From the NCBI GenBank assembly GCA_039029135.1, contig JBCCGT010000002.1:86714-150713 (forward strand): a DNA stretch of 64,000 nucleotides, in the 5' to 3' direction. The notes under the pieces were generated by a model, which was given only the letters and a program-made list of their open reading frames with translations, was not told the origin of the DNA and did no database searches. This document shows, piece after piece, positions 5,283 to 63,548 of this stretch (its first letter is position 1; each line of letters opens with the position of its first letter). A program made the translations under genes and the position numbers. This DNA is from Pseudomonadota bacterium (GTDB lineage Bacteria > Pseudomonadota > Gammaproteobacteria > Pseudomonadales > Azotimanducaceae).

Positions 5283-8200
5283 ATGCCGAGCGGCGAGGCC
5301 AGCGGTGGTTCTGACGACCGCACCCCCAGCGCGTCCAAGGGCGCCACCGAGAACACGCGGGGCGGGCACACCCATCTCGATAGCCAAGCCGATCAAGCCA
5401 GCACGGCCACGCCGGACACCGCCGGCGAGCGCCGCGCGACGGTCCTGGAGCGCGGCGAGCCGAGCGCGTTAGCGGACGAGACCATTTACGAATCCGCCTC
5501 GACGATCGTCCACCGACGCACTCAGGACGGCGTCCGCGTCATCTGCAAAGCGCTAAAACCTCACGCCGCCACGCCGACGGCGATCAGTCGCTACTACCAC
5601 GAGTTCGCGATCAACCAGTCCCTGACCTCGGCCTACGTCTGTCGCGCGCTCAGCTTCGACGAGCGTGTACCCGAGATCACTTTGGAAGACGGCGAGGGCC
5701 AGGCGCTGAAGACCCTGATCAGGGACGACGCGCTGAGCTGGGAGGACCGCCTGTTCATCGCGGCAGAGCTGTGCAGCGCGGTGCAGTCGATCCACGACGA
5801 GGGCGCTGTGCATCGCGACCTCAACCCGGCCAACGTCGTCGTCAACCTGACGCGCCAAAGCCTGCACCTGATCGACTTCGGACTCGCGACGCTGTCCACC
5901 CGGGAGTATCCCGAACTCGACCAGCTGGGCGCCCTGACGGGGACGCTGCCCTATATCTCGCCCGAGCAGACCGGTCGGGTGAATCGCGTCGTGGATTACC
6001 GCACGGATCTGTACTCGCTTGGGGCGACGCTCTACGAGCTGTTCGCCGGAACGCCGCCGTTCCCCTTCACGGATCCGCTCGAGCTGATTCACAGCCACAT
6101 TGCTCGCACGCCCACGCCGCTCGCCGAGGCGGATCGCAAGCTGCCCCAGTGGCTCTCCGATATCGTCGCCAAACTGCTCGCCAAGCAGCCGGAGGATCGC
6201 TATCAGACGGCCGGCGCCGCCGGGGTCGATCTGCAGCGGGCGAGTCAGGACGGCGAGGCGCGCAGCGCGTCTTTCGCGCTCGGTCGGACGGACTCGAAGC
6301 ACCAGCTGACCCTGCCGCAGGCCCTCTACGGCCGGCAACCGGAACAGAAGAAGCTGGCGGAGCTCATCGAGCGGGCGCACGACGGCGAGTCGCTGATCGT
6401 CCACATGTTCGGGCCACGCGGTGTCGGCAAGCAGAGCCTGACGCGCAGCTACGGGGCGCAGTTTCGCGACGGCGGCGGCCTGACCGCGCGCTTCGATTGC
6501 TCGATCGGCATGGCCGATATTGCCGAGTGTCAGCTCGAGCTCGCCCGTCAGCTCTTGCGGCAAATACTGAGCAAAGACGACGACACGTCGAACGCCTTTC
6601 TGGCCCGCTTGCGCAATCTGGCGCCGGCGTACACCGAGCAGCTGCGTGCCAACGTGCCCGAGCTGGCCCGCGTGTTTCAGCAGGCCAGTCGACCGGATCC
6701 GCAGCAGCTCGAACGCGACACGCTGCATCAGCTGCTGAAGTCCATCTCCCCGATCAGCGCGCTCGTCGTGCTGGAAAACCCGAATCGCGTCGCACCGGAA
6801 GACCTGCTCGCGCTCATGGACGATTTCATGGCGCTGAACAACACGATCGTCGTGCTATCGATGGAGAACGACTTCGACCTGGGGCTGGACGCATACCGGC
6901 TGCGCACGACCCGCATCGACCTCAAACCCATCGACCGGGCGGCGGTCCGCCTGCTGCTCGCGGAGACTTTCTCGCACAGCGAATCCAAGGTGCGCGAACT
7001 GGCGGCGGAGATCCACGAGAAGACCGAGGGTTATCCGGCGCAGGTGCTGGCGCTGTTGTATGAGCTGCACGCCAACGAGAGCATCTACTACGACGGCGAA
7101 GCGGACGGTTGGTCCTGGCGCCTCGACGCGGTGAAGAGTCACTACTTCACCGACAACAGCGCCGAGCGCATCAGCACGCTGCTGGAACGTCAGTCAGATG
7201 CCGTGCGCAGCCTGCTCGAGGTCGCGTCCTGTATCGGCGGCAGCTTCAACGCACCGGCGCTCGCGCAGCTAACCGGGCTGCCGGAGGCGGACGTCGCGCA
7301 GCTGATACATCAGGCCGCCAGCGCGGGTCTGATCGCCGTCCGCGAGACCGGCTTCGAGGACGGCCCGGTCTACGGCTTTTCTCACGCCGACATCCGCGGC
7401 CGCATCTACGCGGACCTGGATGAAGGACGCAAGAGCATCCTGCACAACGGCATCGCCGATCATCTGATGTCCCGCTCGACCGGCATCGCCACCAATTCGA
7501 ATCAGACCGTGCGGCTCGAAGGCGAGCGCCTGATTCTGATGGCCGAACACCTGAACGCCGCCACCGATCCACTGGACTCCAGCCCAGACAAGCTGCAGCA
7601 GGTCGCCTACCACAACCTACTCGCGGCGAAAGAGCTGATCCGCCAGGCCGACTATCGCGCCGCCTTCAATCTCGCGCACACCGCGCTGCGGCTGTATCTG
7701 CAGGGCGACTTGTCGTCGTCGCTCTTGAACCAGGAGCTGACGCTCTGCGCGGCAGAGGCGGCCTACCTGTGCCCCGACTACGAGCAGCTCGAACGCCTGC
7801 TGGCCGACAACCAGCTGCCGAGCGCGACGCTGGCCGAGTTCGAGATTCGCATGGCGTATGCCAAGGGCGATCTAACGCGCGCGGCGAGCCTGGTGCAGAA
7901 AACGCTCACGGCGCTGCCTAACATCGACGAACTGCGCAGCCGGCCGATTCTTGAGCGCCTGACGGACTTCGGCCAATCCGGCCCGACGCTGCCTCGCCTA
8001 CCCGAGTCGACGAGCGACGCTGCCTACCAGCAGGCGCTGCGGCTGTGCGGCTACGCCCTGCCGGGCGCGCTGCAAACCGGTAATCGTGCGCTGATCCGCG
8101 AGTGGTGCGAGCTGGCCCGGCGCGGCAATCGCTTCGGCTACGCCCCGGAACAGGCCGCACTGTTCGCCGCCGCTGCTGCCGTCGCCCAGTCGCAGGGCAG

Positions 8201-11200
8201 GCGCGGCGCCGGCCTCGCGCAGGCGGCGCGGACCGTCATCAAGCAGTGGCCAGAGGCGATCTTCAGCGCCCGGGCGCGAGGCATCCTGAGCGCGCTCTAC
8301 GAACCCTGGCACACGCCGATCGACCTCGCGGTAAGCAACCTCTCCGACAGCCTGCGCGAACTGCTGGCCAGCCGCGACTACGAGTTTGCCGGCCTGCTGC
8401 TGCACTGGTTCGCGAGCAACGCGATGCTGCGCGGCACCGATCTGACCTCGCTCGCGCGACGCTTGAAGGCGCACATGGAACAGCTCGCCGACTTCGGCGA
8501 GATCACCAACGTTGCAGCGGTGTTTCACCTCGAGCGGATCATTCAAAGCTATATCGGCGACAAGCTCGACGCGGGCGCCGAGGTGGTGCAGCCGCTGTTC
8601 GAAGACGTGCCGCAGATCGACAACCCCGCTGACCGGCTGACCCGCGCAACCATCTACTGCCAGCGGGCATACTACGCGGTGATCTTCAACGATCCGGACG
8701 GCGCCCGCGAGATCCTGCCCGCCGCGCGAGAGTACGCCGACGCGCTCATTGGATCGCCGCTGCTCATCCAGCTCGCGTTCTGCGAAGCGCTGGTGGAGGA
8801 CGGATCCAGGCGCCGTCGCGCCATCCGCAGGCTGAGCCGCTGGGCGCGCGAGACGCCGTTCGCTCGGCCGAAGAGCCAGATCGTGCTGGCCGAGGCGCGC
8901 TGGCGCGCGGGCGATCGCAACGGCGCGCTGGAGCTCTTTGAGGCCGCGGCCGCCAGCGCCCGCGAGTTGAGTCTGGTGAACGACGAGGCGCTCGCCTACG
9001 AGCGCGCGGCGCGGCGCTGCGATAGCGAAGGGCGTCGCGATTTTCTGCGCCTGTTCGCCCACAGCGCGCACCGCGCGTACATGCGCTGGGGAGCCGTGGC
9101 GAAACTGACGCAGTTCGAGGAGGCGTTCAGTGCGGCGCTGCGTGAGGCCGGGCGCGACCCCAGCCGCGGCCTGGCAGACATCAGCGACCTCACCGTGCGC
9201 GACTTCCACAGTCACTCGCACACCTACCACAGCCAGGAATTCAACGAGCGGCTGCTCGATACGACGACGGTGCTGCGCGCAGCCCAGGCGCTGTCCGGCG
9301 AGATTCGACTGGACCACGTGCTTGAGAAGCTGCTCGGTCTGACGCTGGAGCACGCGGGCGCGCAGAAGGCGGCCATGCTCCTCAGCACCGAGGGACGTCT
9401 GTATCTGGAGGCGGTCGCCTCCGTGGACTCGGAGCACACTCGGCGGATCAACCCACCGATCCCGATGGAGGCCTCCAGCGAAGTGCCGTTGAACATCGTG
9501 CAGTTTGTCAGCCGCACCAAGCAGGTGCTGGTGCTGGGCGATGCGACCCAGGACGATGCCTTCGTCCAGGATGCCTACATCGCCCGTAACAAACCGCTGT
9601 CGGTACTGTGTCTGCCAATCCTGCATCGGGGCGAGCTGACCGGCGCCCTCTACGTCGAGCACCGCTGGCTATCGGAGGTCTTCACGGAACAGCGCGTCGA
9701 GGTCCTGAGCCTGCTGTCTTCCCAGGCCGCGATATCGATCGAGAACGCACGCCTGTACGGCGACCTGCAGGGCGCTCGCGACGACTACCGCACGCTGTAC
9801 GACAACGCGATCGAGGGGCTGTTTCGAATCTCGCCCCAGGGTGCGCTGCTGCGCGCGAACCCGACGCTGGCGACGCTGCTCGGTTTCGAAAGCGTGGACG
9901 GGCTGTTGCGCGAGTATCGCGACCTGCTGGACAACGTGTTTCTCGAGCAGGATAGATCGCAGGAGTTCATGCGCCGACTGGACGAGACGACCAGCGTCAC
10001 CGCCTTCGAGGCCAAGGCCGTGACGCGCGACGGGCGAGAGTTCTGGATGTCGATCGCCGCGCGCCTGACCGAGGAGCAGGATGTCGGCGAGTACATCGAC
10101 GGCTCGATCATCGACATCACCTCACGCATCGAAAGCGAGCAGGCCGAGAAACAGCGTCAGATCGCGGAGGCCGCCACCCAGGCGAAGAGCGAATTCCTGG
10201 CCAACATGAGCCACGAGATTCGCACGCCGATGAACGCCATCATCGGCTTCTCCGAGCTCACGCTCGACACCGATCTCGATCGCCAGCAGCGCGAGTACAT
10301 CGGCTCTATCAAGCGGGCCAGCGAATCGCTGCTCAGCCTGGTGAACGACGTGCTGGATTTCTCGAAGATCGAGGCCGGCAAGCTCGACCTAGAGCACACG
10401 CCGTTCAAGCTCGATGCGTCGCTGGAGGAACTGCAGCGACTGTTCCGCACCGAGCTGCACAAGAAGAAGCTGCCGCTCGTGGTGCGTAATCACGCCCTGG
10501 CCCACGCGGCCTATCCACAAAACGGCGTGCTGCTGGGTGACTCCCTGCGCCTGCAGCAGGTGCTGGTCAATCTCGTCAGCAACGCGCTGAAGTTCACGGA
10601 GGACGGCGAGATCAGCATCGACGTCGAGTTCGTGGACGCCTTTCCCGACGCGCGCGGCGAAGAGCGCCTGCGGCTGCGTTTCCGCGTTAGCGATACCGGC
10701 ATCGGGATCGCGCCGGAGCAGCAGGCCCGGCTGTTTGACTCCTTCGAGCAGGCCGAGTCGTCGACCACGCGCGAATACGGCGGCACGGGGCTCGGCCTGT
10801 CGATCTGCAAACGCCTGGTCGAGATGATGGGCGGCGAGATCAGCGTGACCTCGGAGGTCGAGCACGGTAGCTGCTTCGCGTTCAGCGCGGTCTTTGGCAA
10901 GGGCAAGGCGGAGATCGAGCGCGGCACGCCGCGCGCGAAGACGCGCGACCGGAGCGCGGCGCTGTTTGCCAATCGGCGCGTGCTGCTCGCCGAAGACAAT
11001 CCAATAAACCAGCAGCTCGCGCTCGCGTTCCTGCAGCGCGCCGGCGCCACCGTTGACATCGCGGAGACCGGTCGGCAGGCCATGGCGCGGGCGGTGGCGA
11101 ACGCGTACGACCTGATCCTGATGGATATCCGCATGCCCGAGATGGATGGCCTGGCCGCCACCCGCAGCCTGCGCGAACAGGGGCTGGAGACGCCGATCAT

Positions 11201-11798
11201 CGCCGTGTCGGCGGACGCGATCGGCGAGCGTCGCAGCAGCGCGATCGACGCCGGCTGCAACGGCTACGTCACGAAGCCCATCGACTTCGACACGCTGCTC
11301 GCCGAGTGCAGCGAGCACATGGGTGTCGATCTGGCAGAAACACCGCGGCGGCGCGCCACCGACAACGCGGTCGAAGAGCTCGCGGAAGAGCCGTCGGCCG
11401 CCGGTGCCGCGATGCGCGTTCCGGGCATCGACGTCGGCCAGGCGATTCGCAATCACAACGACAACGTCAAGCTCATGCTGAAGCTGATGGGCGACTTCCC
11501 GCGCTACTACGGCGACGCGGGCACGCGCATGCGCGCGCACATCGTCAACGGCGAAATCGAGGAGGCCGAGCGACTGGCCCACAACCTGCGCGGGGTCGCC
11601 GGCTCGTTCGGCGCGGTCGACCTGCAGGAGGCGTCAAAGACGCTGGAGCTCGCGCTCGCGGACGGCGAAGAGACCAACCTGCTGGGGCTCGCGAACAGTT
11701 TCGCCGTCGCGCTGACAGAAGTGCTGGAGGGCGCGGAATCCCTCGCGAGCAAGGAAATCCCGCTGCGCGCGAGCGACTTTAGTGAGGATGCGTCCTGA
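5283..11798 (+). CDS. giant multidomain sensor: Ser/Thr protein kinase, AAA (P-loop) ATPase, helical repeats, GAF, PAS, HisKA, HATPase_c, REC and Hpt
   Basis: 2171 aa. Kinase motifs: [40 protein letters not shown]-loop GPRGVGKQS (nt 6411-6437). GAF around nt 9255-9770. H-box SHEIRTPMN (His codon 10212-10214). G2 box [17 protein letters not shown] motif [13 protein letters not shown] (Asp codon 11124-11126). Hpt motif [12 protein letters not shown] (His codon 11580-11582). Confidence 0.9.
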
Positions 11799-22268: not shown

Positions 22269-22568
22269 ATGACACAAGCCAGCAACCAAGAACTCGAGGC
22301 CGCCGTGTTCCGGCGCCTGGTCGCCCACCTCGACGAGCGCACGGACGTGCAGAACATCGAGCTCATGAATCTGGCGGGCTTCTGTCGTAACTGCCTGTCG
22401 AAATGGTACAAGGAAGCCGCTGCGGAGAGCGGCGCGCCGATCGAGTACGAAGCGGCCCGCGAGATCGTCTACGGCATGCCCTATGGCGACTGGAAGGCAA
22501 AGTACCAGCAGCCGGCGACCGCAGAGCAGCAGGCGGAGTTTGAGCGCCAGAACGCGCACACGGATTAG
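22269..22568 (+). CDS. DUF1244 domain protein
   Basis: ATG at 22269. The conserved FCRNCLSKWY motif is typical of DUF1244. Confidence 0.65.
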   Translation: MTQASNQELEAAVFRRLVAHLDERTDVQNIELMNLAGFCRNCLSKWYKEAAAESGAPIEYEAAREIVYGMPYGDWKAKYQQPATAEQQAEFERQNAHTD

Positions 22569-22617
22569 CGGCGAACGCGCGCGACACGACGCAACCAAGG
22601 CACGCGGGAACGAGCAC

Positions 22618-23346
22618 ATGACGGGACGCGGCATGCAGATCTGGCGAGAGTGGCGCGGTGTGGCGCTGTTCATCGTGCTGATGCTGCTGTTTCGATCGGT
22701 CATTGCCGACTGGAACCAGGTGCCCTCTGGCAGCATGCGACCCACCATCCTGATCGGCGATCGCGTCGTCGTGGACAAGCTGGCCTACGATCTGCGGGTC
22801 CCCTTTTCCATTCGCCGGTTGTCGCGGTTCGACGATCCAGGTCGCGGCGACATCGTGACCTTCGAGTCGCCACAGGACGGCAGGCTGCTCATTAAACGCG
22901 TCATCGGACTCCCCGGTGATCGCATTGCCATGCAGGACAACGAACTGATCGTCAACGGCCAGCCGGCCGACTACCGCCGCGTGGCGGGCGAAGAGTTGAC
23001 GCGACTCGAGCTGCCGGACGCTGAGCGCTTCGAAGTGCTTGAGGAAACCATCGCCGACCAAAGCTGGATCACGCTGCGCCTGAAGCAGTTCAATCGCCAA
23101 GTGAAGTCGTTCGAGGAGGTGCTCGTGCCTGCCGGGCAGTACTACATGCTGGGCGACAACCGCGATCGCAGCGGCGACTCGCGCTATATCGGCCTCGTCG
23201 ATCGCGCCGCCATTCTGGGTCGCGCCCACACCGTGGCGTTCTCGCTCGACTACGACAACTACTTCATTCCGCGCACGACCCGCTACGGCCGCTCGCTCGC
23301 GGCCGCAGAGCGCAGCCAGCAGATGCCGGCCCCGCCTGGCAGCTAG
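22618..23346 (+). CDS. lepB: signal peptidase I
   Basis: One N-terminal TM segment. Catalytic Ser box VPSGSMRPTI and Lys box LLIKRVIGLPGD. C-terminal GDNRDRSGDSRYIGLV. Confidence 0.85.
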   Translation: MTGRGMQIWREWRGVALFIVLMLLFRSVIADWNQVPSGSMRPTILIGDRVVVDKLAYDLRVPFSIRRLSRFDDPGRGDIVTFESPQDGRLLIKRVIGLPGDRIAMQDNELIVNGQPADYRRVAGEELTRLELPDAERFEVLEETIADQSWITLRLKQFNRQVKSFEEVLVPAGQYYMLGDNRDRSGDSRYIGLVDRAAILGRAHTVAFSLDYDNYFIPRTTRYGRSLAAAERSQQMPAPPGS

Positions 23347-30887: not shown

Positions 30888-30912
30888 TATGAATGAGAAT
30901 GATTATCATTTG
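30888..30912. promoter_or_regulatory. Fur box
   Basis: The core of atGAATGAGAATGATTATCATTTGt matches the Fur consensus segment AATGATAATCATTATC at 14 of 16 positions. It lies in an AT-rich island about 80 nt upstream of the 30988 gene. Confidence 0.7.
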
Positions 30913-30987
30913 TGAAATCGGGCGTGGCGCATGCACCGTCCACGCACGCGGGCCGGGCATATTGGTTACGCCTTGAGGACTCACTAG

Positions 30988-35223: not shown

Positions 35224-36609
35224 TTACTGCAGGCCGCCGCGCGTCAGCTGATCGGGATCCAGGATGCGGCGCAGCTCGTCCTCTGCGATGTCCGTCTGCT
35301 CGACCGCGACGTCGAGAATCGGGCGCCCGTCCTTGTAGGCCGCCTTGGCAATCTCAGCGGCCTTGGCGTAGCCGATGACCGGATTCAGGGCAGTGACCAA
35401 GATGGGGTTGCGGTGCAGCGGCCCGGCCAGGCTGTCCGCGTTGACCTCGAAGGTGGCGATGGCGCGATCCGCGAGCAGCCGCGAGCTGTTGGCTAGCAGG
35501 TCGATGCTGCCTAGGAGGTTGTCCGCGATCACGGGCAGCATGACGTTCAGCTCGAAGTTGCCGGATTGACCCCCATTGGTAATCGCCGCATCGTTACCGA
35601 TGACCTGAGCGGCGACCATCGCCGTGGACTCGGGAATCACCGGGTTGACCTTGCCCGGCATGATGGACGAGCCGGGTTGCAGGGCCTCGAGCGTGATCTC
35701 ACCCAGCCCGGCAAGCGGTCCGGAGTTCATCCAGCGCAGGTCGTTGGCGATCTTTAGCAGCGCGACGGCCAGCGTCTTGAGCTGACCCGAGAGCGCCACC
35801 GCCGCGTCCTGGGATCCCAGCAGCGGAAAGTAGTTGGCCGCCGTCTGGAAGGCCACGCCGGTAGCATCGCTGAGATGCTGCGCGAAGCGCGCCCCGAATT
35901 CCGGGTGCGTGTTGATACCGGTGCCGACGGCGGTGCCGCCCAGCGCCAGTTCCTGCACGCCGGGTAGGACCGCGACCAGCCGCGCCTGCGCGTTGCGCAG
36001 TTGGTCGGCCCAGCTGCGCAGGCTCTGCGCCAGGGAAATCGGCATCGCATCCATCAGGTGGGTGCGGCCGGTCTTGTAAACCGTTTCCAGCTTCGCGGCC
36101 CGCGCTTCGATGGTGTCGATCAGGTGGATCAGCGCGGGCTGCAGTCGTTCGTGCACACCCAGCGCGGCGCTGACGTGGATCGTGGTCGGAATGACGTCGT
36201 TAGAGCTCTGACCGAAGTTGACGTGGTCGTTGGCGTTTACTTCGCTGCCCAGCGCGCGGCTCGCGAGCGTCGCCACCACCTCATTGGCGTTCATGTTGGT
36301 GCTGGTGCCCGAGCCGGTTTGAAACACATCGAGCGGAAAGTGGCGCATGACGTCATCGTCGTCGGCAAGCGAAGCACATACAGAGGCGATCGCATCCGCC
36401 ATGTCAGCGGGCAGGCAATCGAGCGCGGCGTTGGTCTTGGCCGCGTTCGCCTTGACGAGCAGCAGGGCGTCGATGAACGCGCGCGGCATGCGCCGTCCAC
36501 TAACCGGAAAGTTCTCGATGGCGCGCTGGGTCTGGGCGCCGTAGAGCGCATCCGCCGGTACCGTCAATTCGCCCATGCTGTCTTTGACAACACGTGTGCC
36601 CTCAGTCAT
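35224..36609 (-). CDS. fumC: class II fumarate hydratase (FumC; aspartase/fumarase superfamily)
   Basis: Signature GSSIMPGKVNP. The N-terminus KDSMGELTVPADALYGAQTQRA resembles FumC more than AspA. AGAGGA lies upstream of the ATG at 36609. Confidence 0.8.
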   Translation of the reverse strand: MTEGTRVVKDSMGELTVPADALYGAQTQRAIENFPVSGRRMPRAFIDALLLVKANAAKTNAALDCLPADMADAIASVCASLADDDDVMRHFPLDVFQTGSGTSTNMNANEVVATLASRALGSEVNANDHVNFGQSSNDVIPTTIHVSAALGVHERLQPALIHLIDTIEARAAKLETVYKTGRTHLMDAMPISLAQSLRSWADQLRNAQARLVAVLPGVQELALGGTAVGTGINTHPEFGARFAQHLSDATGVAFQTAANYFPLLGSQDAAVALSGQLKTLAVALLKIANDLRWMNSGPLAGLGEITLEALQPGSSIMPGKVNPVIPESTAMVAAQVIGNDAAITNGGQSGNFELNVMLPVIADNLLGSIDLLANSSRLLADRAIATFEVNADSLAGPLHRNPILVTALNPVIGYAKAAEIAKAAYKDGRPILDVAVEQTDIAEDELRRILDPDQLTRGGLQ

Positions 36610-36971
36610 CTCATGTCCTCTGTGGTGTTATCGGATCTGGTATTCACTGCGTCGCGTCAGCACGCCACGCTGATGTAGCCGTATAGCCTCACGCGTTTGC
36701 GCCCATTGCGCCAGCCCCGCAGCGCGCGGCGGCGACAGTGCCGGTCGATGGCCGCTTAAGCCAAGCCGTCAGTCCCGTCCTGTCGATCGACAACGGCGCC
36801 AATAGCGGCGTCGGACGCAGGAAGCCGGCAGGATTGTCCCCGGATTCCGGGACCTCGTCGATCGCCATGGCAACGCGCAGCGGATGCCGTCGGTCGCAAC
36901 GCTCGGGGTTTCTAAAGGCTCGGCCGCGCGTCGCCGTGATTTGGCACATTTTTCGTATTCTTAATTTTAAT

Positions 36972-36996
36972 ACTTATGAGAATCGTTTGCATTTGA
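36972..36996. promoter_or_regulatory. Fur box in the fumC / sodN divergent region
   Basis: acTTATGAGAATCGTTTGCATTTGa sits inside the most AT-rich stretch of the window (tttttcgtattcttaattttaatactt...). It shares ATGAGAAT...CATTTG with the other boxes in the window. Confidence 0.6.
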
Positions 36997-37049
36997 TATG
37001 CCCGGGCGCTAGTTTGAAAGCCGTCGTTTTTTGCGGATCCCCTTAGCCT

Positions 37050-37334
37050 ATGAAGCCCATATCGAAAACCACACTCACGACAGCAGCGCTCGCGAGCCTT
37101 GCATTCAGCCCTCTCGCCGCGGCCCATCACCACGCCGAGGCGACGCTCGGCTCGGGTACAATCGGCCTGCTGCTGATGATGCTGGGCGTGCTACTGGCGA
37201 CCGTCGCGCTCGTCCTGGATCGCCACGACGGCTCGCCACCGGATGCCCGTCGCACCCTTCGCAAAAGCGCCGCTCGACTCAACCCGCTACCGCTACTGAC
37301 ACGCGCCTCGAAACTGGGAGCCAACGCACCGTGA
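37050..37334 (+). CDS. small signal-peptide/TM protein with a His-His-His motif at the predicted mature N-terminus
   Basis: 94 aa: MKPISKTTLTTAALASLAFSPLAAA|HHHAEATLGSGTIGLLLMMLGVLLATVALVL... There is an AxA cleavage site, then HHH, then one TM helix. Its stop overlaps the sodN GTG (GTGA at 37331-37334). Confidence 0.5.
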   Translation: MKPISKTTLTTAALASLAFSPLAAAHHHAEATLGSGTIGLLLMMLGVLLATVALVLDRHDGSPPDARRTLRKSAARLNPLPLLTRASKLGANAP

Positions 37335-37801
37335 AACTCTTCGACATGACTCTGCCCAGCGTCCAGGGACACTGCGACGTGCCCTGCGGCATCTACGACC
37401 CGGCCACGGCCCAGATCGCCGCGCACTCGGTCGCACGCTTTCTCGACCAGATCGCAGAGCTGCCCGAAGGCTCGCTCGATCGCGCCGCGCAGGCACGCCT
37501 CGCGCGACTGGTCAGCCAGAAGGAGGCTCACGCGGCCGAGGTGAAGGCCGCGGTCGTGGTCATCTGGGGGGACTACTTCAAGGCACCGCAGTTCGAGGCG
37601 CACCCGTCGCTGCACGAGCTCACCCACAGCATTCTCCTGACCGCCTCGGCGTGTAAACAGGAGATCGATCCCGCCAACGGTCGCAAGCTGGTCGATCTGG
37701 TGAACGACTTTGCCGAGATCTTCTGGCAGACCAAGGACGTCGACACCGAGCGGGTGGTCGCCAAGTACGCGCCGAATCTGGAGATCGTCCGGCCGCGCTA
37801 G
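37331..37801 (+). CDS. sodN: nickel superoxide dismutase precursor (SodN)
   Basis: The Ni-hook motif HCDVPCGIYDP follows a short propeptide (VKLFDMTLPSVQG if the GTG at 37331 is used, MTLPSVQG if the ATG at 37346). Size and helical remainder fit NiSOD. Confidence 0.85.
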   Translation: MKLFDMTLPSVQGHCDVPCGIYDPATAQIAAHSVARFLDQIAELPEGSLDRAAQARLARLVSQKEAHAAEVKAAVVVIWGDYFKAPQFEAHPSLHELTHSILLTASACKQEIDPANGRKLVDLVNDFAEIFWQTKDVDTERVVAKYAPNLEIVRPR

Positions 37802-37869
37802 TCGGCGCAGCGTGCTCGTCGCGTCGTCGCCGGCGCGCGCCCGAGCCTAGACGTCGAGAGGTCGAGAGG

Positions 37870-37894
37870 TCGAGCGACGCGATCCGTCGCTCGA
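37870..37894 (+). terminator. perfect 10-bp stem / 5-nt loop hairpin downstream of sodN (no U-tract)
   Basis: TCGAGCGACG-CGATC-CGTCGCTCGA, preceded by a GTCGAGAG GTCGAGAG GTCGAGCG direct repeat. Confidence 0.35.
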
Positions 37895-37957
37895 TGCTAA
37901 CGGAGGCACCCCGGAGGCTTCACAGACGGTTCACCGGGGTGTTGCCAATCTAACGGC

Positions 37958-38536
37958 ATGACCGCTGGCATGCCCACCGACAGAACCATCACCCCGCGCT
38001 GGGTCCTGTGTCTTGCGCTGCTCGCCTGCCTGATTGCGGCCAATGCGGCCAGTGAGACACACACCATGTTCGACGCGAGCGCAGAAGGCCACTCCTGGCA
38101 AATCGTCAACGACACCGTGATGGGCGGGCGATCGAGCTCGACGTTCGATCACACCGACGAGGGGTTCGTGTTCTCCGGGCTGCTCAACAACAACGGCGGC
38201 GGCTTCGCGTCGGTGCGGGCCAGAGCCCCTTCGGGCGGCATCACCGGCAGCGACGCGATCCGTCTGACCGTCCTGGGCGATGGACGCACCTACCAGCTAC
38301 GTCTGAACAGTCGACGCCATCGCTACAACTACCAGCACAAGTTCGCCACCCGCGCGGGCGAGTGGCAGACCCACACGCTGCCGCTCGACGACTTCCGGGC
38401 GAGCTGGCGCGGCCGCAAGCTCGATCGGCCGGCGCCCGACCCCACCGACGTGATGGGCTTCGGGATTCTGCTGGCCGACGGCAGAGATGGGCCGTTCCGT
38501 ATCGCGGTGGACCGTATCGAAGCGATCCAGCGCTAA
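37958..38536 (+). CDS. CIA30 (complex I intermediate-associated protein 30-like) family protein, secreted
   Basis: Signal peptide followed by WQIVNDTVMGGRSSSTF, the hallmark CIA30 motif. Confidence 0.7.
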   Translation: MTAGMPTDRTITPRWVLCLALLACLIAANAASETHTMFDASAEGHSWQIVNDTVMGGRSSSTFDHTDEGFVFSGLLNNNGGGFASVRARAPSGGITGSDAIRLTVLGDGRTYQLRLNSRRHRYNYQHKFATRAGEWQTHTLPLDDFRASWRGRKLDRPAPDPTDVMGFGILLADGRDGPFRIAVDRIEAIQR

Positions 38537-38567: not shown

Positions 38568-38793
38568 CCTGGCGGCGACCATTTGCTGTTAGCGATGGCG
38601 CCCCTCTGACATCCCGCTTCGCCTGGATTTACGCAGCTTTATAGCCCTTCTCCCCCGTCCGGTCCGTCTGCGGCCGGACGCCCCCCGTGACGCCGCGCCA
38701 CGCCGGCGCAGAGCGCCTGTGCACCCCACTGGAACATCGCCAAAACCGCCCCGCTAGAGGATTGCGGTTCGATCGGGCCGCACGGTATGATTA

Positions 38794-38820
38794 AATGATA
38801 ATGAGAATAATTACCATTTG
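38794..38820. promoter_or_regulatory. Fur box (best match in the window)
   Basis: GATAATGAGAATAATTACC (38797-38815) matches GATAATGATAATCATTATC at 16 of 19 positions. It lies about 55 nt upstream of the receptor start. Confidence 0.8.
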
Positions 38821-38872
38821 CAGTTTCATCAGCAAAGCAACTCACAAGCGACATAACCAAGGGGAAAGGTCG

Positions 38873-41227
38873 ATGGCAACACAACACCGCCACTGGTGGG
38901 CGCTCGGCTTGGCCGCCGCCTGCACCACCGCGTGGGCACAGGACGACGGCGAACGCCTGCAGGAGACCGTCATTCAGGCGGAACCCACCATTTCAATCGC
39001 GACACGCTCGCTCGGCTCGGAAGAGCTGGTGCAGCAGATGACCGATACGATCGAAGACACGGTGCGCTACATCCCTGGCGTGCAGGTCAACGACAGCGGC
39101 AACCGCTTCAACGACAACGGCTTCAACATTCGGGGTCTGGAAGGCGACTTCGTCGCCGTGACAATCGACGGCGTCGACCAGGGCGAGACCCTGAATCCGC
39201 CTTCCTTCTCTCCCTACGGCTTCTTCGGTTCCAGTCGCGGTGCAATAGAAGTGGAGACGGTCAAGGCCATCCAGGTCACCAAAGGTCCGAACTCGGTCTC
39301 GGTTGGCAACGGCGCGCTGGCGGGCGCGGTTACCTATGTAACCAAGGACCCGAGCGACTTCCTGCAGCCCGACGGCAACGACAGCGCGATCGCCATCAAG
39401 ACCGGCTACGACAGCCGCTCCGATGAGATGATGGTCAGCGCCGCGCTCGCGAACCGCGCCGGACGCGTCGAATCGCTGTTCCAGGCGACCTATCGCGACG
39501 GCCACGAGGTCGAGGCGCACGACAGCGGCGACGACATCAACGGCAGCGCCCGCGGCCAGGCCGACCCCTTCGACCGCGAAGAGCTCGCGCTGTTGGCTAA
39601 GGTCGACTTCGCCGTGCGCGACAACCACACGCTCGGCCTGGTATGGGAAAAGGTGCAGCGCGACATCGATGGCACGCCGCTGTCGAGAGAAGAAGGACCG
39701 ACCTATTTCGACTTCATCACCGACGATCTGAATGACCGTGATCGTATCGGCATCAGCTACGACATAGACGACGCGCAGCTTGGCTTCGCCGACGAGATCG
39801 CCGCGACATTCGACTATCAGTACCTGCACACCCAAGGCATCACGACCTTTGGCTTCAACTCCGCCCGCACGATGGAGCAGTTCCTGCGCCAGGAAGATCG
39901 CGCCTTCAAACAAGAGACCTACCGCGTCGGTCTCGATCTCAGTAAAGAACTGACGCTCGGCAGTCTGGAACACGAGCTCACGTACGGTATCGAGTACGAA
40001 ACTATCGAGGTCAACAACGAGCTGTTCGATAAGCGCTACGTGGGACTGACCATGGATTCGGGTGAACGGTCCTTCAACGTCGACGGCACGTGGGTCCCGG
40101 AAACCGACATCGATCGTTTCAGCCTCTATCTGCGCGATGAAGTCCGTTTCACCGATCGCGTCAGCGGATTCGCCGGGGTTCGCGTCGACAGCACGGAGTA
40201 CTCGCCGGAGGTGGATGACCGCTTCCCTGATCCGACGGGTGACACCTTATTCGACGCGGACTTTACCGCCTGGGCCGGTGAGATCGGCCTGCGCGTCGAG
40301 GTTGCCGATGGCCACAGCATCGCGGCGTCCGTCAGCCAAGGCTACAAGGCACCGACCACGCAGGATCTGTTCCTGGACGTCGGCAGCGGTTTCGTCACTG
40401 ACATCACCACCGGCAACGAGGTGCTGGACATCGAGGAAGTCTCGAATCCGGACCTGGATCCGGAGCGTTCGACCAACTACGAGCTGTCGTACCTGTTCCA
40501 GCGCGGCCGCACGCGTATCGAGCTCACGGGCTTCTTCACGGACTACGATGAGTTCATCCAGAACGTATCGGACGCCGTGCCCTACGCTCAGCCGATCACG
40601 GTACAGGAATTCAGCTTCGCCACCTTCACCTTCGTCAATGTCACCAGGACCGAAGACGCTTTCGTAAGGGCGGAAAACGTCGGTGCGGTCGAGCTGTTTG
40701 GCTTCGAACTGGACGGCCAGTTCGCATTCAACGACCAGTGGTCGGTGCGCTTCGGCTACTCTCACGTCGAGGGCGAGCACAAGTCTTCGAGCCTCAGCCA
40801 GATCAACGGGTTCCAGGATGGCGACGATCTCGTAACAGCGTCGCCGGACTCGGCTCTGCTGTCGCTGCGCTATCAGGCACCGCAAGGTAACTGGGGCGGC
40901 TCCGCCAACTTCGTCTGGACCGACGGCGTCGATGAGTCAACGGATGCGAGCTTCACGTCGCTCAACAACGGCGAAGGTCCCGTGCACTACCCCGACTCCT
41001 GGACGACGCTGGATCTGATCGGCTTCTACCAGTTCGAGCAGCTCGGCGGTCTGCGCCTCTCCGTGGCCGTGCGCAACGTCTGGGACGAAGACTATGTGCG
41101 CTGGGAAGTGATCAACGGCGTGCGTCCCGGCAACGGCGGCTTCTTCGCCGGCGCCAGCGGCAACGGCTTCGAGCGCTTCTCCGATCCCGGACGCAGCGTC
41201 TCAGTCGACCTCAGCCTGAACTTCTGA
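38873..41227 (+). CDS. TonB-dependent outer-membrane receptor (siderophore/haem type)
   Basis: The ATG at 38873 follows GGGGAAAGG. Signal peptide ...ACTTAWAQDD. Plug motifs (TVIQAEP, NIRGLEG, IEVETVKAIQVTKGPNSV) and a terminal ...SVDLSLNF. Confidence 0.9.
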   Translation: MATQHRHWWALGLAAACTTAWAQDDGERLQETVIQAEPTISIATRSLGSEELVQQMTDTIEDTVRYIPGVQVNDSGNRFNDNGFNIRGLEGDFVAVTIDGVDQGETLNPPSFSPYGFFGSSRGAIEVETVKAIQVTKGPNSVSVGNGALAGAVTYVTKDPSDFLQPDGNDSAIAIKTGYDSRSDEMMVSAALANRAGRVESLFQATYRDGHEVEAHDSGDDINGSARGQADPFDREELALLAKVDFAVRDNHTLGLVWEKVQRDIDGTPLSREEGPTYFDFITDDLNDRDRIGISYDIDDAQLGFADEIAATFDYQYLHTQGITTFGFNSARTMEQFLRQEDRAFKQETYRVGLDLSKELTLGSLEHELTYGIEYETIEVNNELFDKRYVGLTMDSGERSFNVDGTWVPETDIDRFSLYLRDEVRFTDRVSGFAGVRVDSTEYSPEVDDRFPDPTGDTLFDADFTAWAGEIGLRVEVADGHSIAASVSQGYKAPTTQDLFLDVGSGFVTDITTGNEVLDIEEVSNPDLDPERSTNYELSYLFQRGRTRIELTGFFTDYDEFIQNVSDAVPYAQPITVQEFSFATFTFVNVTRTEDAFVRAENVGAVELFGFELDGQFAFNDQWSVRFGYSHVEGEHKSSSLSQINGFQDGDDLVTASPDSALLSLRYQAPQGNWGGSANFVWTDGVDESTDASFTSLNNGEGPVHYPDSWTTLDLIGFYQFEQLGGLRLSVAVRNVWDEDYVRWEVINGVRPGNGGFFAGASGNGFERFSDPGRSVSVDLSLNF

Positions 41228-46748: not shown

Positions 46749-46902
46749 ATTCAAATTGCGCATCCAGACTGTTTTCTGCGGGCTTTTGCGGGACAAGCTG
46801 CCGCCCGACGAGGCGTCCGACCGCGTCGCTGTCGCAGCTTGCACGCGTCGCTGTCGGGACCGCTGCCGGACGCCTCGGTCCAGCCGTCAGCCTCTCTCAA
46901 AC

Positions 46903-46925
46903 GGCAATGATTCTCGTTTGTATTT
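46903..46925. promoter_or_regulatory. Fur box in the divergent TonB2-operon / EF-hand gene region
   Basis: GGCAATGATTCTCGTTTGTATTT shares the motif AATGAWTCTCGTTT with the box at 56184. Confidence 0.55.
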
Positions 46926-54193: not shown

Positions 54194-54961
54194 ATGCGCG
54201 ATCGCGTTCTGGTCGCCTACGCCAGTCAGACCGGCCGCGCCGAGAAACTCGCGCGGCAGCTCTGAGAGCGCAATCCCGAGCGCTGCGACCTGTTCGCGCT
54301 CGGCGAACTCGACCCGATCGCACTGACCCGCTACGCGCGCCAGGTGTTTATCGTTTCGACCCACGGCGAAGGCAAGCCGCCAACCCGCGCCGTCGCTTTC
54401 TTCGCTTCCCTGCAGAACGCCGCGATCAATCTGGCCGGGGTGCAGTTTGCGGTCCTCGCACTCGGCAATCGCAGCTATGAATACTTCTGCGCCTTCGGCA
54501 AGGCGCTGCACGCGCGGCTCATCGGGCTGGGCGCCGCGGCGCGGGTGCCGCTGGTCGAGGTACACAACCACGACATGGCCGTGATCACGCACTGGCGTGA
54601 GAAGCTGCAGCTGACCTTCGAGCTGCGCACGGAAGAATCCACGGACTGGGTCATCGCGACCGTCATGGAGGCGCAGCCGCTGCCGGAAGCGGCTGCGGTC
54701 GAACTCGCGCTCTACGTGCAGTGCCTGGAGCAGGCGGAGGCCGCGGCGCTCGCCGTGCGCACGAGCCGCCATCAGCCGGAGGCCGAGGCGTTCATCGCCC
54801 GCATCGTCAGCGATCCGCAGAGTCCGTTCACCAGCATAAGGGTACCGACCGATACGGCGAGCGGACGCTACGCGCGATCGCTGCAGAAACTGGCCGCCAC
54901 CGAATCGGGCGACAAGTGGCTGGTGAAGACGCTGGAGCAGATGCCGGACGGCGGCGCGTGA
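54194..54961 (+). pseudogene. flavodoxin-like (CysJ/P450-reductase FMN-domain) gene interrupted by an in-frame TGA at 54263-54265
   Basis: The ATG at 54194 gives MRDRVLVAYASQTGRAEKLARQL[TGA]ERNPERCDLFALGEL...VFIVSTHGEGKPP...LALGNRSYEYFC. The FMN phosphate loop (SQTG) lies upstream of the stop, so the annotated 54344 ORF alone would be truncated. Confidence 0.45.
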
Positions 54962-56183: not shown

Positions 56184-56208
56184 ACAATCGAGAATGAATC
56201 TCGTTTAG
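56184..56208. promoter_or_regulatory. Fur-box-like operator upstream of the DUF3649/PepSY unit
   Basis: acaatcGAGAATGAATCTCGTTTAg matches the 19-bp consensus at only 11 of 19 positions, but is near-identical to the 46903 box core (AATGAWTCTCGTTT). Confidence 0.5.
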
Positions 56209-63523: not shown

Positions 63524-63548
63524 CTAAATGATTGTGATTCCCATTTGC
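63524..63548. promoter_or_regulatory. Fur box upstream of the terminal TonB-dependent receptor
   Basis: cTAAATGATTGTGATTCCCATTTGc matches the consensus at 12 of 19 positions and shares the trailing CATTTG with the boxes at 30888, 36972 and 38794. Confidence 0.6.

What the first reader, a model, noticed from the sequence alone, without database searches (positions are those of the whole stretch)
35224..37801. Fur-box-centred divergent fumC / nickel-SOD pair: an iron-sparing module built with NiSOD
The iron-independent class II fumarase (35224-36609, minus) and a NiSOD gene (37331-37801, plus; Ni-hook HCDVPCGIYDP) diverge from a 440-nt spacer. The AT-richest part of that spacer contains a Fur-box-like site (36972-36996). 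In Pseudomonas aeruginosa, a Fur-repressed operon joins fumC with the Mn-SOD gene sodA, replacing Fe-S fumarase and Fe-SOD under iron limitation. Here the same logic seems to be rebuilt with a Ni enzyme and a divergent rather than operonic layout. I recognised no SodX-type maturation protease gene next to sodN; the flanking genes are a 94-aa membrane protein and a CIA30 protein.
Basis: partly seen in the sequence, partly recalled or inferred. Interest (0 to 1): 0.65.

Follow-up and report, generated by a model that had tools for sequence, protein, structure and literature searches.

The report
Iron-sparing fumarase and nickel-SOD gene pair
A marine bacterium places an iron-free fumarase gene and a nickel superoxide dismutase gene back to back around a probable binding site for Fur, the iron-sensing repressor; this is a reduced version of a gene cluster common in marine bacteria, and is unusual only because the protease that matures the nickel enzyme is missing.

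Summary
fumC (35224-36609, minus) and sodN (37331-37801, plus, HCDVPCGIYDP) diverge across a 440-nt spacer whose AT-rich end carries a Fur-like site (36960-36996).

The site resembles five stronger Fur boxes in the same window, all upstream of iron-uptake genes. It is the second-best non-training hit of a matrix built from them (local shuffle p about 0.03).

Three details need correcting:
- The site is not centred. It lies 54 nt from the 94-aa ORF but 363 nt from fumC.
- The 94-aa ORF is not a bystander. It overlaps the sodN start (GTGA) and is a divergent member of a small His-rich membrane protein family found only directly upstream of sodN (53 of 155 related loci).
- The idea is only partly new. 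Alteromonas transcriptomics already shows NiSOD and FumC induced together by iron limitation.

What I did not find described is physical linkage. fumC lies within 8 kb of sodN in 8 of 163 related loci, some as Fur-box-led operons (X-fumC-TPR-mem-sodN-sodX) that parallel Pseudomonas fagA-fumC-orfX-sodA.

The real oddity is the missing sodX. It follows sodN in about 149 of 150 related loci but is absent from this 64-kb window.

Verdict: a new variant of a known kind. Regulation is inferred, not shown.

The parts
35224..36609 (-). fumC, class II (iron-independent) fumarase, 461 aa
   Evidence: Pfam Lyase_1 plus FumaraseC_C. The GSSIMPGKVNP loop is present in the sequence. PDB best hits are class II fumarases at about 420 bits, against aspartases at about 310 bits. 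It is 62-67% identical to the sodN-linked fumC genes of L056, L045, L041, L023 and L076. Caveat: it scores below the NCBIfam equivalog cutoffs (494 against 665 for fumC_II).
36610..36940 (.). GC-rich (66-72%) part of the spacer with no recognised content. It may be a long fumC leader or a decayed gene.
   Evidence: No coding periodicity. No Rfam match at E<=1. The 86-aa ORF at 36689-36949(-) has no Pfam hit and no significant similarity to the conserved gene upstream of fumC in relatives.
36940..37049 (.). AT-rich (about 40% GC) promoter region of the 94-aa ORF/sodN operon, and possibly of fumC
   Evidence: Composition profile. Only weak sigma-70-like hexamers on either strand: TTGGCA-16-AATTTT on the plus strand and ATGCAA-17-TAAAAT on the minus strand.
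36960..36996 (.). Fur-box-like array CTTAATTTTAATACTTATGAGAATCGTTTGCATTTGA
   Evidence: Three overlapping 12/19 consensus matches. The 19-mer at 36978-36996 is the second-best non-training hit of the local Fur matrix. Shuffle p is about 0.026.
37050..37334 (+). 94-aa small membrane protein: signal peptide ending AAA, then HHHAE, one transmembrane helix and a basic tail. Divergent member of the sodN-associated DUF6732-like family.
   Evidence: Its TGA stop overlaps the sodN GTG start (GTGA). It is also called as a gene in an independent assembly. Codon periodicity is present in the central part. It scores 9.9 bits against an HMM of 41 family members, above the 99th percentile of shuffles. The family is found only directly upstream of sodN.
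37331..37801 (+). sodN, nickel superoxide dismutase precursor, 156 aa. The leader is 37331-37369 and the Ni-hook HCDVPCGIYDP is 37370-37402.
   Evidence: Pfam Sod_Ni 1.5e-44. TIGR02753 scores 155 bits against a cutoff of 90. All 32 invariant columns of 25 homologues are kept. Position -1 is Gly instead of the usual Ala. A GGGAG Shine-Dalgarno sequence lies about 10 nt before the GTG.
37802..37957 (.). The position where sodX lies in relatives. Here it is a 156-nt gap with no ORF, followed by a CIA30-domain gene (37958-38536).
   Evidence: Three-frame translation shows no S24/S26-like remnant. sodX follows sodN in all 80 genome loci and in about 149 of 150 judgeable loci overall.
38791..38821 (.). 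Strong Fur box (16/19) upstream of a TonB-dependent receptor. Used as a reference site for this organism's Fur motif.
   Evidence: Receptor domains.

Best explanation
The locus is a reduced, rearranged copy of an iron-sparing gene cluster that is widespread in marine Gammaproteobacteria.

When iron is sufficient, Fe-Fur binds the AT-rich array at 36960-36996 and blocks the promoter of the operon formed by the 94-aa ORF and sodN. When iron is scarce, Fur leaves, and the cell makes a nickel SOD to replace an iron SOD. It also makes a small His-rich membrane protein that probably helps supply nickel.

The divergent fumC supplies an Fe-S-free fumarase. It is probably derepressed from the same region through a leader of about 340 nt.

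Shown here: gene identities, translational coupling of the 94-aa ORF to sodN, similarity of the site to local Fur boxes, and recurrent fumC-sodN linkage and Fur boxes in relatives.

Inferred: Fur binding, iron responsiveness, control of fumC from this site, and the nickel role of the small protein.
For: Gene identities.

Fur-like site. The five sites it resembles lie upstream of these iron genes:
- DUF6607 and a siderophore-interacting protein
- two TonB-dependent receptors
- a DUF3450/ExbB/TonB cluster
- a PepSY_TM protein

Linkage of fumC to sodN: 8 of 163 loci carry fumC within 8 kb of sodN, where about 1 would be expected by chance.
- L056 and L045: Fur box (14-15/19), then X-fumC-TPR-(mem)-sodN-sodX.
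- L076: Fur box (17/19), then flavodoxin...TPR-mem-sodN-sodX-X-fumC.
- L041: the same divergent layout as the window, with a 15/19 Fur box between the genes.

Enrichment: Fur-like sites of at least 14/19 occur in 23% of sodN-operon upstream gaps against 8% of other intergenic gaps (Fisher p = 6e-5).

Literature:
- The Pseudomonas fagA-fumC-orfX-sodA operon is iron- and Fur-linked (PMC3377617).
- A. macleodii raises FumC 20-fold and induces NiSOD under iron limitation (PMC7190382).
- Both genes are used as marine iron-stress markers (PMC11069385).
- Alteromonas sodN loci carry a Fur-like palindrome upstream.
Against: - The site matches the classical consensus only 12/19 and is the weakest of the window's six candidates.
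- No convincing sigma-70 promoter was found on either strand.
- The site is 363 nt from fumC, with unexplained GC-rich sequence between them.
- No close relative shares the layout, so the site could not be footprinted. The nearest relative, L081 (sodN 81% identical), has sodN-sodX without fumC or the small membrane gene.
- Without sodX the enzyme may not mature.
- Whether the genome has sodB or fumA to be replaced is unknown.
Confidence: 0.55

Rival explanations
1. The Fur-like site controls only the 94-aa ORF/sodN operon. fumC has its own promoter nearer its start, and its adjacency is inherited synteny from an ancestral fumC-sodN cluster rather than shared control.
For: The site is 54 nt from the 94-aa ORF but 363 nt from fumC. 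The intervening 330 nt shows no recognised gene, RNA family or leader feature. In L023 and L044 fumC lies 3.5 kb from sodN behind a separate intergenic region, which carries 13/19 Fur-like matches in L044 but none at that threshold in L023.
Against: L041 has the same divergent layout with a comparably long distance (about 460 nt) from its Fur box to fumC. This suggests long fumC leaders are tolerated or conserved. No better promoter was found near fumC.
Confidence: 0.25
2. The AT-rich stretch is an ordinary promoter region that merely resembles a Fur box. sodN answers to nickel or oxidative stress, as in the Nur system of Streptomyces, and not to iron.
For: Only 12/19 to the consensus. Shuffle p is about 0.03, which is not overwhelming. 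In Streptomyces, sodN is controlled through Nur and a small RNA (PMC3919588).
Against: The site shares the organism-specific GAGAAT...CATTTG pattern of five boxes upstream of iron-uptake genes. Fur-like sites are enriched upstream of sodN operons generally. NiSOD is iron-limitation induced in Alteromonas (PMC7190382). No Nur-type or NikR-type palindrome was noticed on reading the region by eye; no motif scan was run.
Confidence: 0.13
3. The sodN gene here is a decaying or silent remnant. Having lost sodX, the precursor cannot expose His1 and the enzyme is inactive.
For: sodX is absent from the window although it follows sodN in about 149 of 150 relatives. A search with the nearest relative's SodX returned only that protein itself. 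The -1 residue is Gly rather than Ala.
Against: sodN keeps every invariant residue, has strong codon bias (GC3 0.87), a Shine-Dalgarno sequence and a coupled upstream gene. Six other loci with Gly at -1 do have sodX, so Gly is compatible with cleavage. sodX may lie elsewhere in the 353-kb contig or the rest of the genome, which could not be read.
Confidence: 0.07

Closest known systems
Pseudomonas aeruginosa / P. fluorescens fagA-fumC-orfX-sodA operon (Fur-linked, induced by iron limitation)
   Same: It pairs an iron-free class II fumarase with a non-iron SOD behind a Fur box. Related marine loci (L056, L045) even have the same gene order, with a small gene before fumC and a TPR-like gene between fumC and the SOD.
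   Different: The SOD is the nickel type, with its own accessory genes (a small membrane protein, and SodX in relatives), instead of Mn-SodA. In the window the two genes are divergent, and the genes at the fagA and orfX positions are absent. Homology of the marine accessory genes to Pseudomonas FagA and OrfX was not shown (one search returned no named relatives).
Alteromonas macleodii iron-limitation response (NiSOD MASE_02360 and FumC MASE_14985 induced; PMC7190382)
   Same: The same two enzymes serve as iron-sparing replacements in a marine gammaproteobacterium. Alteromonas sodN loci share the TPR-mem-sodN-sodX arrangement and a Fur-like palindrome upstream.
   Different: In A. macleodii the two genes are far apart, judging by their locus tags. 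Here they are adjacent. There the regulation is measured; here it is only predicted.
Canonical sodN-sodX cassette (Streptomyces, marine cyanobacteria, marine Gammaproteobacteria)
   Same: A NiSOD precursor with a short leader ending just before HCxxPCGxY.
   Different: There is no sodX after sodN, nor anywhere in 64 kb. The -1 residue is Gly. In Streptomyces, regulation runs through Nur and a small RNA (PMC3919588), not a Fur box at the promoter.
Pfam DUF6732 / N-terminal segment of HupE-UreJ nickel permeases
   Same: Signal peptide, then a mature N-terminus that starts with His and is rich in His, then a transmembrane helix. A typical family member passes the DUF6732 cutoff (28.3 bits) and another weakly matches the first 50 positions of HupE_UreJ.
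   Different: The window's 94-aa protein has HHHAE instead of HPGHDHxHW and matches no Pfam or NCBIfam model. With a single helix it cannot be a permease on its own. No function is known for DUF6732.

Membership tests
Nickel superoxide dismutase (Sod_Ni, TIGR02753) | Profile score above the curated cutoff | tested here: met
   TIGR02753 scores 155.3 bits against a cutoff of 90. Pfam PF09055 scores 152 bits against 25.
Nickel superoxide dismutase (Sod_Ni, TIGR02753) | Ni-hook HCxxPCGxY directly after a cleavable N-terminal leader | tested here: met
   MKLFDMTLPSVQG / HCDVPCGIYDP. H14, C15, C19 and Y22 are invariant across 25 homologues.
Nickel superoxide dismutase (Sod_Ni, TIGR02753) | Dedicated SodX (S24/S26-like) maturation protease encoded next to sodN | tested here: not met
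   No SodX-like ORF in the window. The only S26 protein is the 287-aa LepB type at 22483-23346. sodX is adjacent in about 149 of 150 related loci.
Nickel superoxide dismutase (Sod_Ni, TIGR02753) | Ni-dependent SOD activity | not testable with these tools
   Needs an enzyme assay.
Class II fumarase (FumC) | Lyase_1 plus FumaraseC_C domains and the GSSxMPxKxN loop | tested here: met
   for the domains. GSSIMPGKVNP is in the translation.
Class II fumarase (FumC) | Closer to fumarases than to aspartases | tested here: met
   PDB: fumarases at about 420 bits, aspartases at about 310 bits.
Class II fumarase (FumC) | NCBIfam equivalog cutoff | tested here: not met
   TIGR00979 scores 494.5 against 664.75. 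The aspartase subfamily model scores 487.7 against 510. This is a divergent subgroup shared with the other sodN-linked fumC genes.
Fur box (Fe-Fur operator) | Match to the 19-bp consensus GATAATGATAATCATTATC | tested here: inconclusive
   12/19 in three overlapping 6-nt registers. That is typical of weak sites and reachable by chance in AT-rich DNA.
Fur box (Fe-Fur operator) | Match to the organism's own Fur-box pattern | tested here: met
   Second-best non-training hit of a matrix from five sites upstream of iron-uptake genes. Shuffle p is about 0.026.
Fur box (Fe-Fur operator) | Overlap with a promoter | tested here: inconclusive
   Only weak hexamers were found. The position, 54-90 nt before the start of the 94-aa ORF, is compatible.
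Fur box (Fe-Fur operator) | Fur binding and iron-dependent repression | not testable with these tools
   Needs EMSA or footprinting, and RNA measurements.
Pseudomonas-type fagA-fumC-orfX-sod operon | Co-directional operon with a small gene before fumC and a gene between fumC and the SOD | tested here: not met
   In the window the genes are divergent, and neither accessory gene is detectable. The pattern is met by position in the related loci L056 and L045.
Pseudomonas-type fagA-fumC-orfX-sod operon | Sequence homology of the accessory genes to FagA and OrfX | not tested
   No Pseudomonas sequences were available. The profile search returned only unnamed marine proteins.
sodN-associated small membrane protein (DUF6732-like) | Located directly upstream of sodN and coupled to it | tested here: met
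   GTGA overlap. 53 of the family's 54 HMM hits lie directly upstream of sodN, and the other is fused to it.
sodN-associated small membrane protein (DUF6732-like) | Signal peptide, mature N-terminal His cluster, one transmembrane helix and a basic tail | tested here: met
   ...LAAA/HHHAE...GLLLMMLGVLLATVALVL...RRTLRK. The features were read from the sequence; no signal-peptide predictor was available.
sodN-associated small membrane protein (DUF6732-like) | HxGHDHxHW motif and a profile score | tested here: inconclusive
   The motif is reduced to HHH. The local HMM gives 9.9 bits, above the 99th percentile of shuffles but below the shuffle maximum. No Pfam hit.

The most novel reading that the evidence does not exclude
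The small His-rich membrane protein encoded directly upstream of sodN (DUF6732-like; the 94-aa ORF here) may be a dedicated nickel-capture or nickel-delivery factor for NiSOD. The unit would then have three parts: nickel supply, the nickel enzyme and an iron-free fumarase. In addition, in this lineage NiSOD maturation may no longer depend on a linked SodX, with another peptidase cutting the VQG/H site.
Probability: 0.2. Interest if true: 0.6.

Novelty: new variant of a known kind. Interest (0 to 1): 0.4.

Why it matters
Iron limits heterotrophic bacteria over large parts of the ocean, and NiSOD and FumC transcripts are already used as field markers of bacterial iron stress.

Physical linkage of the two genes behind Fur boxes in several marine lineages would give a genomic basis for that co-induction. 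In some loci flavodoxin or azurin genes sit in the same cluster. The linkage would also tie nickel demand to iron scarcity.

The work also points to an uncharacterised small protein that travels only with sodN, and to a rare sodN that lacks its usual protease. Both can be tested at the bench.

For this window specifically, the finding is an expected regulon member in an iron-uptake neighbourhood, not a surprise.

Tried and rejected
- Looked for a gene in the 330-nt GC-rich part of the spacer. The 86-aa ORF at 36689-36949(-) has no Pfam hit, no coding periodicity, and only an 8-residue resemblance (PESGDNPA) to the conserved gene upstream of fumC in relatives (hhalign probability 0.4%). Rejected as unsupported.
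- Rfam at E<=1 over 36400-38000 found nothing.
- The sigma-70 and terminator scan found no promoter above chance. My own lenient scan found only 8/12 matches.
- Searched the window for sodX, the TPR gene and the gene upstream of fumC with proteins from relatives. The only hit was LepB.
- Searched the 5.8-billion-protein set with the nearest relative's SodX, hoping to find one from the same genome. Only the query came back. This is weak negative evidence.
- A metagenome scan for close relatives with the same layout found nothing above 62% identity, so phylogenetic footprinting of the site was not possible.
- Tried to show that the marine gene upstream of fumC is FagA with a profile search. It returned 20 unnamed marine proteins and no Pseudomonas protein. 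A literature search on PA4469 and PA4471 was uninformative.
- Tested whether Gly at the -1 position goes with loss of sodX. It does not: 6 of 7 loci with Gly have sodX.
- Considered aspartase instead of fumarase because of the NCBIfam scores. Rejected on the PDB ranking.
Full report
**The observation**

The window has 67% GC and comes from an uncultured Pseudomonadota genome; its sodN protein is identical to P0001, which lies on a 353-kb contig.
- fumC occupies 35224-36609 on the minus strand (Lyase_1 plus FumaraseC_C).
- Its best solved-structure matches are class II fumarases at about 420 bits, against about 310 bits for aspartases.
- It falls below the NCBIfam equivalog cutoffs.
- sodN occupies 37331-37801 on the plus strand (Sod_Ni 1.5e-44; TIGR02753 155 bits against a cutoff of 90).
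- The Ni-hook HCDVPCGIYDP follows a 13-residue leader.
- Between fumC and the next plus-strand ORF (37050) lie 440 nt.
- GC is 66-72% over 36650-36950 and drops to about 40% over 36940-37050.

**The Fur-like site**

Against the classical 19-mer, the region gives three overlapping 12/19 matches, at 36960, 36966 and 36972. That alone is weak.

The same scan found much better sites elsewhere in the window:
- 38797 (16/19)
- 30895 (15/19)
- 63530
- 56190
- 46903

These five sites lie upstream of iron-related genes:
- a DUF6607 gene followed by a siderophore-interacting protein
- two TonB-dependent receptors
- a DUF3450/ExbB/TonB cluster
- a PepSY_TM protein

So the window from about 31 kb onward is an iron-uptake neighbourhood, and these sites show what this organism's Fur box looks like (GAGAATnATTnnCATTTG).
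- The 19-mer at 36978-36996 (GAGAATCGTTTGCATTTGA) is 14/19 identical to two of them.
- A matrix built from the five sites, without the test site, ranks it second among all non-training positions on both strands.
- 520 of 20,000 shuffles of the local AT-rich 121 nt reach its score.

I conclude that it is a plausible but weaker Fur operator.

It is not centred in the spacer. It ends 54 nt before the start of the 94-aa ORF and begins 363 nt from the fumC start. Promoter hexamers on both strands are weak.

**The 94-aa ORF belongs to the sodN unit**
- Its TGA stop overlaps the GTG start of sodN (GTGA), and a GGGAG lies about 10 nt upstream of that GTG.
- An independent assembly calls the same two genes.
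- In related loci, a 60-75-aa ORF sits in the same place. It has a signal peptide ending in Ala, then HPGHDHxHW, one transmembrane helix and a basic tail.
- An HMM of 41 such proteins hits 54 of 15,821 ORFs in the 163 loci. Of these, 53 lie directly upstream of sodN and one is fused to it.
- A typical member passes the Pfam DUF6732 cutoff. Another weakly matches the first helix of HupE/UreJ nickel permeases.
- The window's protein has HHHAE after the predicted cleavage site. It scores 9.9 bits against the HMM, above the 99th percentile of composition-matched shuffles.

I treat it as a divergent member of the family. The nickel-related role is my inference.

**Related loci**

I fetched 80 genome loci and 80 metagenome loci around sodN homologues, plus four through identical-protein look-ups.

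fumC lies within 8 kb of sodN in 8 of 163 loci, where roughly one would be expected by chance. The arrangements are informative:

| Locus | Organism | Arrangement |
|---|---|---|
| L056 | Arenicella | Fur box (14-15/19), then X-fumC-TPR-mem-sodN-sodX |
| L045 | Oceanospirillaceae | Fur box (14-15/19), then X-fumC-TPR-sodN-sodX (no mem ORF detected) |
| L076 | not recorded | Fur box (17/19), then flavodoxin-ORF-TPR-mem-sodN-sodX-X-fumC |
| L158 | not recorded | mem-sodN-sodX-azurin-X-fumC |
| L041 | not recorded | divergent like the window, with a 15/19 Fur box between fumC and ORF-mem-sodN |

Here X is a conserved 111-131-aa protein with an HWRxxC motif, and "mem" is the small membrane protein.

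This gene order mirrors the Pseudomonas fagA-fumC-orfX-sodA operon, which is Fur-linked and induced by iron limitation (PMC3377617). I could not show that X and the TPR protein are homologous to FagA and OrfX.

Across all loci, Fur-like sites of at least 14/19 occur in 23% of the intergenic gaps that precede sodN operons, against 8% of other gaps (Fisher p = 6e-5).

**What is already known**

In Alteromonas macleodii, iron limitation raises FumC 20-fold and induces NiSOD. The authors name both as iron-sparing replacements (PMC7190382). Both genes are used as iron-stress markers in the California Current (PMC11069385).

Alteromonas loci in my set have TPR-mem-sodN-sodX and a Fur-like palindrome upstream. 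The physiological idea is therefore published.

In my searches I did not find a description of the physical fumC-sodN cluster, or of the small membrane protein. Only one paper holds the terms sodN, fumC and Fur together, and it concerns Streptomyces Nur.

**What is unusual here**

sodX follows sodN in all 80 genome loci and in about 149 of 150 judgeable loci overall. Five apparent absences turned out to be divergent sodX genes, and only L096 truly lacks it.
- The nearest relative, L081 (sodN 81% identical), has sodN-sodX.
- In the window, the 156 nt after sodN hold no remnant.
- The only S26 peptidase in 64 kb is a LepB-type enzyme.
- A database search with the nearest relative's SodX returned only that protein itself.
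- sodN itself looks intact and selected.
- Gly at the -1 position is compatible with SodX in six other loci.

The gene may lie elsewhere in the genome, which I could not read.

The window also lacks X and the TPR gene. The 330-nt GC-rich stretch between the Fur-like site and fumC has no recognised content. The corresponding stretch in L041 shows a faint resemblance to X (hhalign E = 4e-4), so it may be a decayed gene.

**Explanation and verdict**

The most likely account is this:
- Fe-Fur represses the promoter of the 94-aa ORF/sodN operon at 36960-36996.
- Iron scarcity lifts the repression, and NiSOD replaces an iron SOD.
- fumC, the iron-free fumarase, is probably derepressed from the same region through a long leader.

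My confidence is 0.55 for the whole account, and higher for the sodN side alone.

The main rival keeps Fur control of sodN but gives fumC its own promoter (0.25). Less likely are a non-Fur AT-rich promoter (0.13) and a silent sodN (0.07).

This is a new variant of a known kind. The logic is that of Pseudomonas fumC-sodA, and the enzymes are those of the Alteromonas response. Here they are physically linked, in a reduced divergent form without sodX. Interest is moderate (0.4).

Noticed in passing
Related loci L004-L158, directly upstream of sodN (for example L057 7756-7947, L023 7753-7965); window 37050-37334: A family of 60-75-aa membrane proteins has a signal peptide, a mature N-terminus HPGHDHxHW, one helix and a basic tail. 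It occurs only directly upstream of sodN (53 of 54 HMM hits; one more is fused in frame, as in L026 and P0012/L082). It matches Pfam DUF6732, for which no function is known.
   Followed up: partly
L158 1882-2334; L088 6814-7263; L106 4305-4754; L036, L011, L111 and others: An azurin-like copper protein gene follows sodN-sodX in at least 20 loci. A flavodoxin gene precedes the cluster in L076 and L059. So several iron-free replacement proteins appear to gather around sodN.
   Followed up: partly
L056 5506-5847; L045 5653-6000; L076 8773-9150; L023 13468-13851; L158 2352-2732; L028 7107-7469: A conserved hypothetical protein of 111-131 aa (invariant HWR..C..PL motif, no Pfam or NCBIfam model) lies immediately upstream of fumC, in the position of Pseudomonas fagA. 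In L028 it lies upstream of mem-sodN without fumC.
   Followed up: partly
window 30889-30913, 38791-38821, 46897-46921, 56184-56208, 63524-63548: Five strong Fur boxes with a shared GAGAATnATTnnCATTTG pattern lie upstream of iron-uptake genes: DUF6607 with a siderophore-interacting protein, two TonB-dependent receptors, a DUF3450/ExbB/TonB cluster opposite EF-hand/ApbE-DUF2271 genes, and a PepSY_TM protein. The right half of the window is an iron-uptake island.
   Followed up: partly
window 36610-36950: A 330-nt GC-rich stretch between the Fur-like site and fumC has no coding periodicity, no Rfam hit and no supported ORF. It contains a 19-nt imperfect inverted repeat (36866-36884 / 36920-36938). 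It may be a long leader or a decayed gene.
   Followed up: partly
window 38795-38875: The longest ORF of the TonB-dependent receptor starts at 38795, inside its own Fur box. An independent gene call gives 784 aa, so the real start is probably the ATG at 38873.
   Followed up: no
window 37840-37900: Just after sodN there are three tandem GTCGAG(A/C)G units and an 8-bp hairpin (GAGCGACG-CGATC-CGTCGCTC) without a T-run. This may be an atypical terminator between sodN and the CIA30 gene.
   Followed up: no
window 5283-11798: A 2171-aa protein combines a Ser/Thr kinase, an AAA ATPase, GAF, PAS, histidine kinase, receiver and Hpt domains.
   Followed up: no
window 54344-54961: A 205-aa ORF matches only the C-terminal two thirds of the flavodoxin profile (profile positions 51-130 at residues 2-76). 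It may be truncated or have a mis-set start. It lies between an aldehyde dehydrogenase and a Fur-box-preceded PepSY_TM gene.
   Followed up: no
L096 4190-4675: This is the only other locus, out of about 150, with no sodX after sodN. It is a low-GC (38%) marine contig where sodN follows groES-groEL. Close relatives (L093, L094) do have sodX.
   Followed up: no
L081 5880-5925: The nearest relative's sodN is preceded by a perfect AT palindrome (ACATAATATATATTATG) next to an HxlR-type regulator gene, instead of a Fur-like box. Regulation may therefore differ even between close relatives.
   Followed up: no
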